Made by a program: the position numbers and the translations under genes. The notes beneath the pieces were generated by a model. That model made no database searches, was not told the origin of the DNA, and was given only the letters and a program-made list of their open reading frames with translations. DNA of 9,530 bases from Geosiphon pyriformis uo1 (taxonomy: Eukaryota > Fungi > Glomeromycota), in the NCBI GenBank assembly GCA_016748015.1, contig JAAOMT010000202.1:1-9530 (forward strand). Direction: 5' to 3'. Below, in pieces: positions 461-9,530 of this stretch. Every line of letters starts with the position of its first letter. Positions within the stretch are counted from its first letter, which is position 1.

Positions 461-756
461 TATGGGTCTCAGGTCTGTTTGCTCTACCCTTACTGAATAT
501 TAGAGGGTTATTTGAGTAATCAAAGACTCTAGTGCCCCTATGGTAACAGGTCCCCTCCATAGGCACTCTTCGGCCAGCATCCCCTCATGAAGGCCTCAGG
601 GCCAATTTTGTCAGTAATACACGATCGCTATGACTATTACCTTCCCAGCCTTCTACGGTTGGAGGCGCCGTATACGGGAGAGTCCGAAGTACTCCTGCTT
701 GCTGAGATTCTCCACTGTATAATCCCCGAGCTGTTGGATTGAACATCTTACCAATA
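461..756 (-). pseudogene. Second mitovirus-like RdRp fragment (motif F to motif A region)
   Basis: The minus strand reads ...LSRIRRLQP*KAGKVIVIAIVYY*Q (KAGK...YY* at 611-652), resembling E.AGKVRVIAIVDYWTQ. The adjacent frame gives TKLALRP, followed by LH at 587-592, resembling Q..L.PLH. RRVPMEGTC (546-572) resembles R.IP.DGTF. YSVRVEQTDLRPI (461-499) resembles YSFDLSAATDRLPI and is in the same frame as the KAGKV motif. The upstream edge is a C10 tract at 757-766. Confidence 0.82.
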
Positions 757-1400
757 CCCCCCCCCCGAATCCAACCTCTTGGGATATGGCTCTGGTTTTA
801 TTGGTACCTTGGGATCCCCCCCACCCCCCCCCCCACCTACCTCTGGGGATCTCTAATGGTACCTCATTTTTGGGGGGTATTTGGTGGTCCTTTTTGTAGG
901 ATTTTTGGTATCCCAAAAGGGGTATCTGGTATCCATCACATCCTATGGTATATGGGCCCTCCATATGGCTCCGGTCTTGGGATCCCACTACATATTGGGT
1001 ATTGGGATACTATGGTGGGATATGGGTACTACCCTATGGTATATGAGGTATAGACGGGTATTGGGATACCACACATACTCTAGGCTCCGATCTAGTGGAT
1101 ATGGGGTGTCTATACGGTTGGGTATATGGGATACTACTAAATGGCTAAATTTTGGATACCCTTGTGGTTTTTGTCTAGGGCTCACATCCTTGTGTAATAT
1201 GGTGTATCCACCCTTGTTTTTGGTAGTATTGGGTGGTACCTCCGGTTGGGGACTTGGTTTTTGTATCTTTGTTGAATTTGTACCTCCTACCCTATGGTTG
1301 CTGCGTATATCCTGTTTGGGTAGTCTTGGCTATATGGTTGGGTATCTGGTACTATTTGGATCCATTGGTGTGGATACTTTGGATCTTATAGGGTACATTT
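757..1400 (+). repeat. Degenerate GGTA(C/T)C-type low-complexity DNA
   Basis: It uses the same word vocabulary as 6400-9530 (GGTACC, GGTATC, CTATGG, TTTTGG), with poly-C tracts at 757-766 and 816-834. Confidence 0.7.
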
Positions 1401-4370
1401 TGCTATGAGGGACCATTGGTGGAGACATGGGATCCACAAGGCTAGGTGGGATCAATAGAGGGATCCTTTGGATCCCCTGGGCTATGGGATCCATTAGGGG
1501 ATACATTTGTGTCCTCAGGGCTCCTCTATGGCTACATGGTAGATCCCCTGGGTGGATCCTTTGGGGTCCATGAGGGGAGATATGAGATAGATGGATCCTC
1601 TAGGATTCCTTGGGTATCTGGGACTATGAGATCCATTAGGGCTATGAGTATACTCTGGGCTGCTAAGGGTTAGATAGGTTAGATGAGATCCACTAGGGAT
1701 ATCTGGCTAGAGGGACTATGGGCTAAAGGGGGATCCACTAGGTTAGATTGGATACTTTGGATCCATTTTGTGGATGGGCTAAATGGGGATCCATTGGATA
1801 CATTGGTGTCCATTTGGTTAAATAGGCTAAAGGGGACTATATGGTTGGATGGGCTATGGGGATCCTATAGGGTGATGGGAAGGATGGGTGGATCCATTGG
1901 GGTTAGAGGGACCATTTGGCTATTAGGAGGATACATGGGTACATTGGGGACTCAATGGCTATTGGGGGATCCTCTAGTGATCCTTTGGTTAGATGGGTAC
2001 TATTAGGAGGATACATGGATCCTTTGGGATAGATGGTTAGAGGGACCCTTGCTCTATAGGGGATGGATGGCTCTAGAGGGTGGGATCTATAGGGAGAGGG
2101 TTAGATAGGGTTGAAGTGGATCCATTAGGGCTAAATGGGCTATTTAGGATCCATTGGTGGGTATCTGGTATAGGTGGTACTCTCTGGGTTCAATCTGGGA
2201 TCCTTGAGGTTTGATGGGATAGATGGCTACAAGGGCTATGAGGGCTATCTGGTATATCTGAGATCCATTAGGGGATCATTTGGATACCTTTGTTTGTCCA
2301 CGGGTTTAATGGGATGGATGTTGCAGATGGGGATCCTTTGGGACCCATTGGGGCAGAGGGCTAAATATGGGATCTATGGGACTATGAGAATACCCTGGGT
2401 CCATGAGGGTCCCTTTTGTAAAGGGCTACATGGTAGAGGTGTGGATGGATCCATTAGGGATCTATTAGGCGAGTGGTCTATGGTGGATATATGGTATCCT
2501 CTATGGGATATATGGGATATAGGTATCTATGGTGATGGATCCTCTGGAGATGGAGAGATATGGCTATTAGGGTTAGATGGAGATATATGGGGATGGTGTA
2601 ATCACTTAGTGGTATATGGATAGATGGTACTATGGTCCTCTATAGGGTCCCTTAGGGTTCTATGGATAGAGGAGATGCTCAATGGGGGATCTATTGGAGG
2701 GTCCATTGGTTTGTCCTCTAGTGGATAGATTGGATATCTGGGGTCCTCTAGAGGTGGGATATCCTCTATGAGGAGAGATGGATGGATACCTTGGGTACAT
2801 GGCTCTCTAGTGCTCAATAGGGTACATTTTGCTCAATAGGGGATCCATTTGGTATAGGTATATCTGAGATCCCCTGTTGGATACTTGGATACTTTGGATA
2901 CTCAATGGTAGAGATGGTTGGGCATGGTACTCTGCTAGGCTCTCTTTGGTCCATGAGGGCTCAATCTGGGACTATGGAGCTAGATGGGATAGATGGTAGA
3001 GATGAGGCTATAGAGGGTAGGATATGGCTATACAGATAAATGGGGATGGATCCCTGGCGGGTCCTCTATTAGATCCTCTAGGATCCTATACGGGCTTCTA
3101 GTGGTCATCGGCTCTACCTTGAGGCTCTGGGATCATTAGTTTTATCACTATGGGTCCATTGGGTGATCCTCAATGGGATCTAGGGATCCAACGGGACCCT
3201 GAGGGCTCTCTACTAGTGACCATTAGTGCTCCATATAGCTAAAGTTTGATATATGAGATCCACTAGGGACTCAGGGTTAAGGGGCTCCTGGGACTAGAGG
3301 TGTTAGAGGGACCATGAGGATCCATGAGGGCTAAAGTGCTCAATATGGAATCCTCTAGGGGTTAGGTAAGATGGATGGTATCTATAAGGGTTCAATAGGG
3401 CTCTAGTAGGCTAAATGGGCTATTTAGGGCTATGGGGATACACAGGTGTTGATATATTAGATCCACTATGGGGATGGATGGGCTACAGAGGGATCCCTTT
3501 GTATGGATGGCTATATGGTGATCCATCTGAGTTGGATGGTATCCTCTAGGGTATATGGGATCCATGGGTACCTTTTTAGACTTTGGATCACTTAGGGGAC
3601 TATGGCTCCTATCTAGTGGATGGGATCCTTTTGATCTATGGAGAGAGATGGCTCTATTTTGCTCAATATGGGGATCCACTAAGGTTTGATCTAGGAGGCT
3701 GACTATACTAGTATCCTCTAGTTATCCTATGGGGGACTAGATGGGCTACAATTGAGCTCAATGGGTAGAGATTAGATACTTTGGATATACTGGAGGATCC
3801 TTTTGATCACTATGGTGGATGGATGGGTTATATGGCTCAATAGGGACTATCTGGATACTTTGGATCCTTTGGGGCTAAATGGGCAGATGGGGGATCCTCG
3901 TATACTTTGGGTCCATTATGGGATCCCTTAGGTACTCAATGGTGGTTATATATTAGATCCACTTTGTTGGATGGTGGGATCTATTGGGTACATTGGGGGA
4001 TAAATGGCTCCATGTGATACACTGTGGTTGGATCTATTAGGGACGAGGGTTGGCTATGGGGATACTTTGGATCCATGGGCTATTTGGGATACTCTTGATC
4101 TATAGGGTCCTATTGGGCTATGGGACTATGAGATCCACTGGGTAGATGGTGGCATATTGGATCCCCTAGGCTATATGGGATATAGGGTATAGGCTCTATG
4201 GATGGATCCTCTAGTGATCCTTTGGGAGAGGGGGATCCTTTGGATCCTATGGGGACGGTTGGATGGATGGGTAGTGATGGGATCCGCAGGGCTATGGGAT
4301 ATAGGATACTTTGGATACATTAGGCTATCTTTTTGTTTATGTAAACATCTAAACCCTCTGTATGGATCCC
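1400..4370 (+). repeat. Degenerate GGATCC-rich low-complexity repeat domain
   Basis: A manual count gives roughly 35-40 GGATCC sites in about 3 kb and only about one GGTACC. Longer words recur: GGATACTTTGGAT (near 1372, 1750, 2888, 3854, 4060, 4304), GGCTAAATGGG (near 1777, 2129, 3409, 3873) and AGATCCACT (near 1686, 3256, 3459, 3955, 4131). No fixed period is visible. Confidence 0.85.
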
Positions 4371-4778
4371 TCACTTACCTGCTCCCATTATCGGGTATCT
4401 TGGCATATGGGATACCTCTTTGGGGTGTAGGAGAGGGGATATTTGGTTTTGAGATAGTTGGTTTGTATACCCCCCAATCCCGCATCACCCCCCCCCCAGG
4501 ATCCCCAACCCCTATACCCTTGTGCCCTGGTGTGGTATGGGCTACTTAAGGTTGATCCTGGGTCCAATGGGGATGGAATCATATTGATCCTCTCATTGGA
4601 TCTTTTGCTTTTGGATTGGGTTTGTACCCACGGGGTAGTCATTGGTGCTCTACTTTGTGCATCTAATGTTTGTGCCTATAAGTCTATTTTTGGGTATCAC
4701 AATCACTCTTGCTACTCTTGTAGTGGGATCTTGTTGGACCCACAAATGTTGGTAGATCCGGTGTGATACCCCCCCCCC

Positions 4779-4834
4779 CCGCAAGGCCGGGCCGAGGCCC
4801 CGTAGGCAGGGCCGTAGGCCAGGGGCCGGAGGCC
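4779..4834. repeat. GC cluster: array of short palindromic mini-hairpins
   Basis: CC-GCAA-GG (4779-4786), GGCC-GA-GGCC (4790-4799), CC-GTA-GG (4800-4806), GGCC-GTA-GGCC (4810-4820) and GGCC-GGA-GGCC (4824-4834) follow directly after a C12 tract (4769-4780). Confidence 0.8.
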
Positions 4835-4862
4835 ACCAACTCCCTCTGAAACACTTGTAAAC

Positions 4863-4925
4863 GGGGTCCTCCCTGGGGGAAGTGGGGGGCCCCAACCCCC
4901 CCCTTAGAGGGTAATCCGGGACCCT
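4863..4925. other. Potential multibranched stem-loop
   Basis: An outer inverted repeat GGGTCC (4864-4869) / GGACCC (4919-4924) encloses TCCC-TGG-GGGA, GGGGGG..CCCCCC and CCCT-TAG-AGGG pairings. Confidence 0.45.
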
Positions 4926-4929
4926 GGGC

Positions 4930-5159
4930 TCGTATCCCTTTCTCCACCTTTTGGCGGAGGACCCTCTGCCCTCAGTCAGTAGTATACAGGCGTGGGTACT
5001 TTGGCCCCATTTTTCTCGGGACCTTTTAACCCCTGGGGTCGCGGACCAATGCTCTATTTTAAGGGACGACCCATGGCAGGTCCTCAGAAGATGAGTTGTA
5101 CCACCAATGAGTAGTCATGGCCGGCCTCCTTGTCAAGGACCCCCCCCTTGTAGGCCTAC
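4930..5159 (-). other. Probable C-terminal or 3' portion of the endogenised viral sequence
   Basis: It has the same non-background composition and is contiguous with and downstream of motif D on the minus strand. No recognisable motif was found. Confidence 0.35.
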
Positions 5160-6012
5160 CTATTAAGAGTGGATAGCAAACCTTATTGGATTTATCTCCA
5201 CACCAACAGCTCGCCTTACCCAGGGTCCTATTAGGTTGGGGCGGGGACCCCCGAGAAGTATGAGTAGAGGGTCTACTACCTTATTAGTGAATGGCCCCCA
5301 CGCAAAAATGGCCTCCTTGAAGCTGGGTATACTTCCCTCTCTCCCTCCAAGGCCGGCCGCCCTCTGGAACCCTTCCTATCTGTGTCCGACTTTGAGGATA
5401 TTGGGATACCTAATTCTTCCATAAGGGCCAAATCATCTTTAGCTACTCTTTATGAGCAAATAACCACCAAATCCTCTCCTAGTACCCGGTAGTCGGCCAC
5501 AACTACCATGAGAGGGGGTTTATGCTTATTCGAGTACCATACCCTCGCTTGTAGAAATGCCCGGTACCGCTTGCCACTGGACCAGGCGGGCACAGGGAGT
5601 CTGGCGAATGATTCTAGTTGCACCCATTGGGGCCTTGGAGAGTACTTTACCACCTACGAGTCCTTTAACCTTGTTACCTGCCGTAAGACTTGGACGGTCC
5701 TATCCCACCATAGGGACCACGGGACCAATACCCTTAGTAGACCCCCCCCTTATTACTCTCTCTCTACATGATTAGGCGCAATACCAACTTACTTGCCTCC
5801 TCCCCAATATTGAACCCATAAGATACTCCCCCAAAAGGAAGTGATAGTACCTATTGCCGCTTAAATAGAAAAGCAGGCCAAATACACATTAGATTACCCC
5901 ACCTTATGAGTATTGGTGGTATTTGGCAGATATGTGGTCTCAGGGTCGGTTGGCTATACCCTTCCTGAATATAAGAGGGTTCCATTTGAGTTATCAAAGA
6001 CTATAGTGCCCC
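5160..6012 (-). pseudogene. Decayed mitovirus-like RNA-dependent RNA polymerase core (endogenous non-retroviral RNA virus element), motifs A-D region
   Basis: Manual minus-strand translation gives these segments in the correct order. A motif-A-like YS..TD/LRP lies at about 5935-5971. VKYS then PMGA (5619-5630) and, in frame with it, LVQW (5574-5585) resemble V.Y..GQPMGALSSW......HH..VQW. DYRVLGEDLVVI (5459-5494) resembles .Y.VLGDDIVI. After a TAA at 5450-5452, RVAKDDLALMEELGIPISSKS (5387-5449) resembles VA..YL.LM..LGV.IS..KS. After a further frameshift comes GSIPSFKE, similar to SPIPFKE. Stops, frameshifts and GDD->GED indicate a pseudogene. The consensus motifs are recalled from mitovirus RdRps and no search was run. 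Confidence 0.88.
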
Positions 6013-6018
6013 CCCCCC

Positions 6019-6400
6019 TTTGTGCCAGTAGTCGAGTACCTGACAAACTTGCGATTACTGTGCCCAATTTACTGCCACAAAGCAGTATCCTCACTCCCTA
6101 CAGGGACATTGGGGCCGATACCCTGTGAGCCCTGCCAATCCTACGGTCCCTCAAGAGTCGGAATCTTAGCTTACTAGTATACGCCCCCCCCCAGGAGGCT
6201 AATAACAACTCTACCAATACTAGGTCTGGTCGTGCTGCTTCAATGTAATAGCAGGCAAAGTTAGTTTCAGTGTAAGCCCCCCTTCTGCTGACTGGAGTAG
6301 CCGAGGCGGAGATAGGTACTCCACAGTAGGTGCTGACTCTAAGTATGGGTACATAATAGGCTACAAAATAAAGCTATTCCTTACTCAAGTGCCCCTAGTG
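6019..6400 (-). pseudogene. Probable N-terminal part of the same viral RdRp element (poorly conserved)
   Basis: This is non-repetitive, CpG-containing sequence contiguous with the RdRp core and positioned where the N-terminal domain would be. Protein cues are weak (TYCGVP, RVVISLL, STTGTKG) and scattered over frames with many stops. Confidence 0.4.
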
Positions 6401-6471
6401 CTCTATACGGTTGGCCCCCTACCCTATGGGATATGGGTATTCCAATAGGGGTATATGGGTATATGGTGATA

Positions 6472-6768
6472 CCTCTCCATCTGGGAATTTGGTACTATAC
6501 TCTGGGATCTGGTATTGGGCTCTATGGGTCTCCCAATCATCTGGGATCCTTGGTATAGAAATTGGGGATTTGGGTACCTTTTGGGACCACCAGCTAATGG
6601 TTGCTACCGGGTCTATTTTTGTATACCACACCACCTATGGCTATACCCTTTGTGGTAGTATTTTGGGATATATGGGTATCGTGGAATACTACTCTACTCT
6701 AGGCTACTCATGATACCCCCTTAATAGGCTCCCATTGCCAAATATTGGGTATGGGTACCCCCCCCCCC
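6472..6768 (+). repeat. 297-bp exact direct repeat, copy 1 (left of gap)
   Basis: It appears identical to 6963-7259 at an offset of 491, starting CCTCTCCATCTGGGAA and ending GGGTA-C11. The duplicated ORF translations agree. Confidence 0.95.
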
Positions 6769-6962: not shown

Positions 6963-7259
6963 CCTCTCCATCTGGGAATTTGGTACTATACTCTGGGATC
7001 TGGTATTGGGCTCTATGGGTCTCCCAATCATCTGGGATCCTTGGTATAGAAATTGGGGATTTGGGTACCTTTTGGGACCACCAGCTAATGGTTGCTACCG
7101 GGTCTATTTTTGTATACCACACCACCTATGGCTATACCCTTTGTGGTAGTATTTTGGGATATATGGGTATCGTGGAATACTACTCTACTCTAGGCTACTC
7201 ATGATACCCCCTTAATAGGCTCCCATTGCCAAATATTGGGTATGGGTACCCCCCCCCCC
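6963..7259 (+). repeat. 297-bp exact direct repeat, copy 2 (right of gap)
   Basis: It appears identical to 6472-6768 and begins exactly at the end of the N run. Confidence 0.95.
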
Positions 7260-9530
7260 GCTTAAGGGCGCCCTACCCTTTGGGATATGGGTACCCTTTT
7301 TGTGGAGGTATTTGGTGGTAGGATTTGGGTAGTAGGGATCCCATCCTATGGACTCTTTTGGTGGAGTGATTGGGCTCATAGGGGAGACTGGGTACTGGTA
7401 GATTGTGGACCACTCAATATGGTGATAGGGTAGAAACCTATGGGCTCCATTTTGGTATTGGATCTACGGTTGGTAGTACTTTGGGTACTTTAGGGATTTT
7501 GTTTGACCCTCTAGGGCTACATTGGGTTGGTATATTTGGTGGATCTCTTATGGGTCTTTGGTTTTGGGATTATTTTGGTCTATTTGGGTCCACTACACTA
7601 TGGGCCAATAGGGTATTCGGGTATATAGGGGTTGGGACCTATATACTACTATGGTTGCTCCTCCACCCTAATAGGGCTAGACTGGGTATATTTGGTTGGT
7701 ACCTACGGTGTAGGAATTGGGCATCTTTTGTGGTACCTCTTATGGTTGGTATCCTATGGGTATATAGGTAGTGTTGGGGCTCTTTTTGGGTAGGTTTGGG
7801 GGTATCTTGGGGGATATTTGGTGGTATCCTATTTGGTTGTAGTCTTTGGGGCCACTACCCTATGGGCGATAGGGGTATACTGGGTATCTCTAATCTGTAA
7901 TACTTGGTGGTATAGATTGGGGCTCCTCCCACATATGGATATGGTATCTTTTGGGCAAGTCAATCTCAATCTTTTGGGTACTTTGGGTATCTCCCACCCT
8001 ATGGGATCTGGTACTGGGCAAGATTTTTGGTACCACTCTACTTTGGGATATGGGTATATTTGGGGAGATTTTGGGATACCCTAAATGGTGCCGAGGGGTC
8101 TATGGGACACTACTACACATCCTTGGCTATAAGGGTCTTTTGGGTACCACCAGCTAGGGCTCATATGGGATTTTTTGTATACCACTACTCTACTCTATGG
8201 TGCTCCTACACTATAGGCTAGTGGACTTTTGGGTAGATATTGGTACCACACATATGGCCATCCTAGAGGCTCTACAGGGATTGGGCTCATACCTTTTGGA
8301 TCTTGGGATACCCCCCCCCCTACCCTATGGTGAAAACCTTTTGTTGGTAGATGGGTATCTATACTCTGTACTCCCATACTATGGGTAGAGACTCTTTGGA
8401 GATTTTTGTGGATTCGGGTATCCTACATCTTGGTTTGTATGGGGTATTTGGTTGGACCCTAAATGGGATAGGAGGTCCACTACTTCTGGGCTACTCATGG
8501 ATCTATTGGGGAGATTGGGTAGAGTGGGGGTCCTTTGGGGATTTGGGTATCTAGATGGTGGATACTCCATATGGGCAAATTTGGGTATCATATGGGTGTA
8601 TTTGGTAGTACCCCCCCCCAGCTCATCCTCTGGTATATGGTATTGGGCTACCTGGTTGGGGGGGCCCCGCTGACTTGGCTCCGGCTCTGTATATTTTGGG
8701 ATACCACCCCCCTATGCTTGGTATTTGGTACCACTGCCATATGGTTGCTCAGCTCGGTGGTAGATTTTGGGGGGGATGGTTGGTACCTTATCCTATTGGG
8801 CTCAGCTCTTGGGTATATACTCAGGGTAGCATTTTGTGGACCACCTATCCTATGGGCTACATTGGTGGTGGTATATGGTGTATGTGGTACTACCCTATGA
8901 GATATGGTATCCTCTAATGTTTCTATTTGCTTACTATACTATGGGCTACATTGGCATCGGTGGTATATAGTAGATACCCATACTATGGGCTCTATGGGAA
9001 TATTTGGTACACTACTCTCTGGTTACCTATAGGGGAGGAGAGGTGGATCCTACTACCCATGGTGGTAGTGATATAGGCTACGCGTATAACTGGGTATTTT
9101 GTGGTATCCTCTTTTGTAATACTTGTAAACATCTTTGTGTGGAGAGTGGGGATACGGGTCCCTCCAACTACTTTATGGCTCCTTTGGGTACCACTCAATC
9201 TGGGCTACGTGAGATTGGTAGACTTGGTTGGTATCACTAGACTATGGGTACTGGGTATCTCCGTTTGTACCATCCTCTGGGTCCTTTGGGATACCACCAA
9301 ATAGGCTACGGGGAGTCATTGGTATATCCTGTTTGGTATCTTTTGGGTTGGAGGGGTAGGGATTTGGCTACCTTTTTGTATCTTTGTGGATACCCAATAT
9401 ATGGGATATGGCTACTTGCTCTTTGGTACCCTATCTGGGATAGGTATACTCCCCCTGGCCTCCTCAGTGGTATATAGGGTTGGTATTTGGTAGATAGGGA
9501 CCACTCATACGGTTTGGTACCCCCCCCCCC

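What the first reader, a model, noticed from the sequence alone, without database searches (positions are those of the whole stretch)
461..756. A second, separate viral fragment supplies the segment missing from the large copy
Seen in the sequence: this island encodes KAGKVIVIAIVYY, LALRP/LH and RRVPMEGT, none of which I can find in 4930-6400. It then runs into the block shared with 5931-6012. The large copy switches from presumed N-terminal sequence to this shared block at 6009-6018. Inference: joining 6400-6019, 756-539 and 6012-4930 would rebuild a more complete ancestral RdRp. The two same-strand pieces, about 5.5 kb apart, are relics of one duplicated insertion or of two integrations of related viruses.
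Basis: partly seen in the sequence, partly recalled or inferred. Interest (0 to 1): 0.78.

Follow-up and report, generated by a model that had tools for sequence, protein, structure and literature searches.

The report
Scrambled mitovirus relic, copied three times
Decayed DNA pieces of an RNA virus's copying gene lie in this repeat-rich, likely mitochondrial DNA; the small piece does hold a motif the big piece lacks, but the big piece is itself two diverged back-to-back copies, so the pieces do not line up into one gene as proposed, and this is an ordinary kind of viral fossil.

Summary
The island is real: 649-549 (minus strand) aligns collinearly with mitovirus RdRp motif F through the PxDxT segment, and 461-538 is 86.6% identical to 5931-6012. 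No significant second copy of that segment was found in 4780-6410. 6395-6013 is not N-terminal sequence: it is a 58-65% identical tandem copy of 6012-5621 on a constant diagonal, and both units fit the palm segment motif A to motif B. The C10 run at 6009-6018 is the junction between the units. So the shared block exists three times, and the proposed order would put an A-B segment before motif F. Even island plus 6012-4930 gives about 54 codons between DxT and motif A, against 24-26 in 120 of 120 clade proteins. Island and unit 2 differ by 7 transversions, no transitions and 3 indels, so they most likely split as DNA after one capture; unit 1 is older and may come from a second related virus. 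The variable parts fit a large, UGG-using mitovirus clade that includes a Rhizophagus virus. Host and compartment are not shown. Verdict: a dead, shuffled mitovirus NERVE, a known kind.

The parts
650..756 (-). Island, part upstream of motif F; foreign composition, only weak profile match on its own
   Evidence: composition; 159 of 200 shuffles as good alone; joins the collinear path
549..649 (-). Mitovirus RdRp motif F, PLH and PxDxT segment, frameshifted; the only clear copy in the window
   Evidence: 0 of 200 with each of three profiles
461..538 (-). Island copy of the shared block; best read as the segment after DxT up to a decayed motif A
   Evidence: 86.6% to 5931-6012; 2 of 300 and 4 of 200 with the clade profiles, 37 of 300 and 44 of 200 with the other profile
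757..766 (+). C10 run at the upstream edge of the island
6013..6395 (-). Unit 1: diverged tandem copy of 6012-5621; third copy of the block start, motif A region at 6253-6229, helix 6205-6143, lead-in of motif B at 6050-6024
   Evidence: 238 of 368 identical to unit 2, offset 378-395, 0 of 300; 0 of 200 under two of three scoring schemes; profile fit 0 of 200 and 2 of 200
6009..6018 (+). C10 run at the junction of unit 1 and unit 2
5621..6012 (-). Unit 2: shared block (6012-5931), motif A region at 5875-5843, helix, motif B at about 5653-5610
   Evidence: DxT-to-B fit 0 of 200 and 5 of 200 with the clade profiles
5280..5620 (-). End of motif B, motif C (reads GED, 5494-5459), motif D (5446-5387) and following residues, with stops and frameshifts
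   Evidence: PF05919 E 5.3e-04, 19.5 bits, below the cut-off of 25; 0 of 200 with three profiles
4780..5279 (-). Foreign-composition tail, presumably the C-terminal part and 3' end; no significant match
   Evidence: 13 of 100, 25 of 60, 20 of 60, 51 of 60 shuffles as good; 4775-4935 folds no better than shuffles
4769..4780 (+). C12 run at the downstream edge of the large region

Best explanation
The window holds non-coding, decayed pieces of a mitovirus RdRp gene, arranged as a small island plus two diverged tandem units, which were likely reverse-transcribed into mitochondrial DNA and then likely duplicated and shuffled as DNA at C/G runs. Shown: the island covers motif F to the shared block; the large region is unit 1 (block, A, start of B) followed by unit 2 (block, A, B) running on into C and D; every piece has stops or frameshifts. 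Inferred: capture by a host reverse transcriptase (none is in the window); an old event gave unit 1, either a DNA duplication or a second related virus; a younger DNA duplication gave the island and unit 2 copies of the block; the segment upstream of the block was then lost from the large region and everything downstream of it from the island, with breakpoints at homopolymer runs. It most likely does nothing today.
For: Collinear profile matches for F-DxT and B-D. Tandem repeat on a constant diagonal, specific to unit 2 among five regions tested; the profile puts motif A at 6253 and 5875, the same 378-nt offset as the DNA alignment. A-to-B spacing is about 74 and 77 codons in the two units, inside the natural 47-84. 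Block differences: 0 transitions of 7 and 3 indels in 82 nt, against a transition share of 0.547 and 0.35% gap columns in 368 alignments of natural relatives at 80-92% identity (P 0.004). 3 of 5 boundaries lie within 5 nt of a C run of 9 or more, which cover 2.9% of positions. Flat contig depth of 92-103 with no other letters on the viral parts. Multiple partial mitovirus copies per mitochondrial genome are reported in plants (PMC4393810).
Against: Unit 1 was invisible to plain protein and DNA profile tests and to an unrestricted fit of the 120-protein profile (10 of 100); it is significant only with a mutation-aware score restricted to DxT-B and not with the ATD-R profile (28 of 200, 25 of 200). 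The tandem repeat falls to 4 of 200 under the strictest scoring and two of three blastn settings miss it. Seven substitutions are few: with no transition bias P is 0.059. The boundary test is post hoc, and C runs also lie inside the relic. No gene, tRNA or Rfam RNA in the window fixes the compartment; no whole genome is held.
Confidence: 0.72

Rival explanations
1. Two related viruses of one clade were captured, and unit 1 comes from the second; the shared start of both units reflects cutting or template switching at the same G4 run. This differs from the best explanation only in fixing the origin of unit 1.
For: Mismatches between the units follow the coding pattern third > first > second position: third-position share 0.42-0.43 against 0.33 for neutral decay and 0.53 in natural pairs at 60-72% identity, P 0.02-0.05 under three gap settings.
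Against: Both units begin at the same base, as a tandem duplication would give; 15-26 gap openings and a transition share of 0.29-0.33 (natural pairs 0.43-0.46) point to long decay as DNA; the frame was taken from the profile path.
Confidence: 0.4
2. One reading: one RdRp split into 6400-6019 (N-terminal), 756-539 and 6012-4930.
For: The island precedes unit 2 on the protein and shares 82 nt with it; C10 runs lie at 757 and 6009, as a deletion between two runs would leave; a GPN triplet at 6116 would fall about 69 codons before motif F, inside the natural range.
Against: 6395-6013 is a copy of 6012-5621, fits A-B and not the N-terminal part; GPN occurs 5 times in the window; DxT-to-A spacing would be about twice the norm.
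Confidence: 0.04
3. The shared block is itself a compressed motif F to PxD segment, so unit 2 onward is one complete collinear copy and the island is redundant with it.
For: Unrestricted fits of 6018-5280 place the block at model PL..PxD and give a normal 26-27 codons to the motif A at 5875.
Against: Not significant alone (15, 20, 54, 90 of 300; 35, 52, 61 of 200); needs about 11 codons lost in several small gaps; the island copy fits the post-DxT reading better (2 of 300) and continues the F-DxT path.
Confidence: 0.15
4. The pieces are in nuclear DNA, or in a co-sequenced organism, not in the mitochondrial genome.
For: CpG is strongly depleted in the flanks (0.09-0.15 of expectation); no organellar gene in 9.5 kb; runs X2 and X3 of the same sample hold almost none of it (no proof of absence).
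Against: No transitions among the block differences, unlike methylation- or RIP-driven decay (established knowledge); other dinucleotides are also depleted, as in simple repeats; neighbouring contigs of like composition are at depth 92-131.
Confidence: 0.2

Closest known systems
[quoted passage not shown] 2015, PMC4393810; Fagales mitogenomes, PMC8558628)
   Same: Partial RdRp copies in DNA, from near complete to barely detectable, often several per genome, centred on motifs F-A-B-C-D.
   Different: Host not shown to be a plant; far more decayed than the expressed Arabidopsis copy; the variable parts favour a clade whose one host-named member here is a fungal virus. Plant NERVE sequences were not in my reference set, so membership of the plant clade was not tested.
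Large UGG-using mitoviruses of arbuscular mycorrhizal fungi and soil (Rhizophagus clarus mitovirus 6, WVH16998.1; Mitovirus sp. QDH87172.1; PMC6316171)
   Same: Island block, unit 1 and unit 2 fit this clade's profiles (z 2.1-4.9) and not the ATD-R profile (z 0.7-1.2); A-to-B spacing fits; 4 of 5 codons read as Trp are TGG.
   Different: Those are live RNA viruses with a 900-1100 aa open frame; this is broken DNA. No close relative was found; the conserved F and B-D parts fit both groups equally.
Pfam PF05919 Mitovir_RNA_pol
   Same: Only family hit with E under 0.1, at motifs C-D.
   Different: 19.5 bits, under the curated 25; the island gives no PF05919 hit.

Membership tests
Mitovirus NERVE | Homology to mitovirus RdRp motifs in the order F-A-B-C-D | tested here: met
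   F-DxT and B-D 0 of 200 with three profiles; A regions weaker
Mitovirus NERVE | Present as DNA, continuous with host sequence | tested here: met
   Single X1 contigs span each region with its flanks at flat depth; X1 may be the source of the window and its kind is guessed, so not independent
Mitovirus NERVE | Located in the mitochondrial genome or a nuclear copy of it | not testable with these tools
   No genome held; no gene or tRNA in the window
Mitoviridae (live virus) | One intact ORF encoding the RdRp with GDD | tested here: not met
   Stops in all six frames under tables 1 and 4, motif C reads GED, longest stop-free stretch over the motifs 91 aa
Mitoviridae (live virus) | Structured terminal regions | tested here: not met
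   4775-4935 minus: 187 of 200 shuffles fold at least as well; this may not be the true end
Large UGG-using (ATD-L/T-IP) mitovirus clade | Placement in the clade | tested here: inconclusive
   Profile preference in the variable region only; no tree built, pieces too short and decayed; reference picks partly steered by window motifs
PF05919 | Gathering score 25 bits | tested here: not met
   13.5 and 19.5 bits

The most novel reading that the evidence does not exclude
The host is not a plant but a fungus or other UGG-using eukaryote whose bloated, C-run-rich mitochondrial genome captured two related viruses of the large mycorrhizal-type mitovirus clade and spliced them at homopolymer runs: a fossil record of co-infection in a group where a 2023 paper (PMC9965874) found no concrete evidence of mitovirus integration.
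Probability: 0.25. Interest if true: 0.55.

Novelty: new member of a known kind. Interest (0 to 1): 0.3.

Why it matters
As a plant NERVE it is routine. It would matter more if the host is a non-plant, since PMC9965874 (passages read) states that searches for mitovirus sequences in genomes of other taxa had been unsuccessful; two unchecked notes of this scan already report such copies in fungal mtDNA. The layered divergence (about 9% and about 35-40%) and the breakpoints at C runs also give a small readout of how this genome mutates and rearranges.

Tried and rejected
No whole genome, so the rest of the assembly could not be searched by protein; laying X1-X3 contigs at 80% showed no further copies on the viral parts, which cannot see copies as diverged as unit 1. 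No RNA holder listed. phmmer of the main frame against 1.84 billion proteins: 0 hits; island frame against 5.8 billion: 11 candidates, none at E 10; Atlas on 6373-6098: nothing above 0.82; one metagenome scan for the block: 0; Rfam, tRNA: 0; Tandem Repeats Finder misses the 385-nt repeat. Readings of 6400-6019 rejected: N-terminal; motif D-E at 6343-6254 (3 of 200 when restricted, but 10 of 40 unrestricted, and off the tandem diagonal); motif F at 6064-6025 (inconclusive). The block is not a DNA copy of either A zone (52-457 of 500 global). Unit 1 does not extend detectably into the island's upstream part (209 and 221 of 500), and the similarity of host flanks is no higher than controls (136 against 106-154). 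The negative island/large-copy score correlation was a selection artefact and vanished within sets. Literature searches did not identify a genome with this spacer type (PMC6131824 passages did not fit). Reference handling: 300 loci fetched; 211 gave proteins long enough to keep, 150 had both F and C, 75 non-redundant; 22 + 79 in the two codon profiles; 120 further proteins.

Full report
Setting. The window is gene-free, low-complexity DNA (no tRNA; no Rfam hit) with two stretches of foreign composition, about 461-756 and 4780-6410 (order-3 Markov contrast). No whole genome is held. One public run, X1, holds it and may be its source. X1 contigs cover 300-2941 at depth 92 and 3883-6750 at depth 103, with no other letters on the viral parts; the two are linked through short repeats of about double depth at 2912-2992 and 3881-3912, so distance and orientation between island and large region rest on the window assembly.

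The island. The quoted peptides are there. Direct database searches failed, so I fetched 300 mitovirus-like IMG/VR loci by motif patterns and mapped each piece separately with a frameshift-aware aligner. 652-549 aligns in order to motif F, PLH and PxDxT (70 against a shuffle maximum of 48; nhmmer E 3.9e-05); its motif F is the top of 18,982 placements in the window by a wide margin (49.8 against 20.1). Some reference patterns were drawn from these motifs, which inflates the island's scores; the set was not, and nhmmer-independent pairwise scores exceed reversed controls there too. The block 538-461 continues the same path to a decayed motif A with the clade profiles (2 of 300; 4 of 200), but not with the ATD-R profile (44 of 200). 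Motif labels F, A, B, C, D are the standard ones (recalled; order as in PMC4393810).

The large region. Motifs B, C and D are at 5653-5387 (PF05919 E 5.3e-04, below the cut-off; 0 of 200). If the block held the only motif A, A to B would be 109 codons, against 47-84 in 186 references. This led to the main result. 6395-6013 aligns with 6012-5621 at 238 of 368 identical columns on a diagonal of 378-395 nt (164 against 70 +/- 9, 0 of 300). With dinucleotide-preserving shuffles it holds at 0 of 200 under two scoring schemes and 4 of 200 under the strictest; four control regions give 11-184 of 200; blastn finds it at E 0.001 (58% over 264 nt) with one of three settings. Both units start at the same GGGGCACT, which is also the start of the island's block, and the C10 run at 6009-6018 is their junction. 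A codon score that allows for random base decay places unit 1 on the DxT-to-B segment (0 of 200 with the 22-member profile, 2 of 200 with the 120-member profile, 25-28 of 200 with the ATD-R profile) and not on the N-terminal part (128 of 200, 83 of 200, 20 of 100). No reference was picked with a unit 1 motif. Motif A falls at 6253 and 5875, the offset the DNA alignment gives. Plainer tests had shown nothing significant for unit 1, so the protein assignment alone is moderate; it is the agreement with the DNA repeat that carries it.

The proposed rebuild. Putting 6400-6019 first would place an A-B segment before motif F. The second join, island to 6012, has the right order but gives about 54 codons from DxT to the motif A at 5875, against 24-26 in 120 of 120 clade proteins and 20-33 in 128 of 129 others, with one natural case of 52. 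So the block is a further A-containing fragment, an unusually long loop, or, less likely, a compressed motif F; I could not decide among these. A DYW stretch at 6064-6025 is the only hint of motif F in 6019-6400 (84 of 1000; 2 and 14 of 300); the same bases read as the lead-in of motif B (0 and 16 of 300) and align to that place in unit 2.

History. The two closer block copies differ by 7 substitutions, all transversions, and 3 indels. Natural relatives at 80-92% identity have 54.7% transitions and 0.35% gap columns (368 alignments), so P is 0.004 under virus-like divergence and 0.059 with no bias: a DNA duplication after capture is the likely origin. Units 1 and 2 differ far more, with a mild third-position excess (P 0.02-0.05), which leaves open a second related virus. 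Three of five boundaries sit on C runs of 9 or more (P 2e-04, post hoc), and 19 of the 21 runs of 7 or more in the window are C on the plus strand; homopolymer-guided recombination or slippage is inferred, not shown. Reverse transcription by a host retroelement is the mechanism presumed in PMC4393810; none is in the window.

Lineage and prior knowledge. The variable parts favour large, GC-rich mitoviruses with almost no in-frame TGA; one cluster of that clade holds Rhizophagus clarus mitovirus 6 and others hold unassigned Mitovirus sp. records (9 of 120 proteins looked up). PMC6316171 (passages) reports long RdRps and UGG use in mycorrhizal mitoviruses. PMC4393810 (parts 1-2 of 4 read; supplements searched, alignments not held as text) reports more than 175 copies in plant mitochondria; PMC8558628 (passages) reports multiple independent entries in Fagales; PMC9965874 (passages) notes no success outside plants; PMC7822452 and PMC12737674 (passages) add no integrated case; PMC6131824 (passages) did not match the spacer. 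Searches found no open-access report of mitovirus integration in fungal mtDNA; subscription papers are not covered. Two unchecked notes of this scan report such copies.

Verdict. Observation partly confirmed, interpretation partly supported: a dead, shuffled mitovirus NERVE with three overlapping copies of one palm segment. New member of a known kind; interest 0.3, higher only if the host proves not to be a plant.

Noticed in passing
window 727-756 and 5184-5213: Inverted 30-nt match (73%, 11 exact) between the island's edge and the large region's tail; longest inverted pair in the window but 12 of 300 shuffles as good.
   Followed up: partly
window 6472-6768 and 6963-7259: Perfect 297-nt direct repeat on both sides of the N gap, ending in a C run; probably a scaffolding artefact.
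   Followed up: no
whole window: 19 of 21 homopolymer runs of 7 or more are C on the plus strand, although the flanks are G/T-rich on that strand; five C runs of 8 or more lie inside the viral region.
   Followed up: partly
window 770-4480 and 7260-9520: Gene-free spacer built of degenerate GGATCC/GGATAC/GGTACC words, CpG at 0.09-0.15 and AA at 0.4 of expectation; no matching genome type found in three paper searches.
   Followed up: partly
window 2912-2992 and 3881-3912: Short repeats at about double depth where X1 contigs break, with alternative joins listed; possible recombination or mis-assembly points.
   Followed up: no
window 4780-4930: GC-rich end of the large region with a 14-nt tandem unit at 4800-4835; no folding signal above shuffles.
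   Followed up: partly
L028: A natural mitovirus with a 52-residue loop between DxT and motif A, 1 of 129 examined.
   Followed up: no
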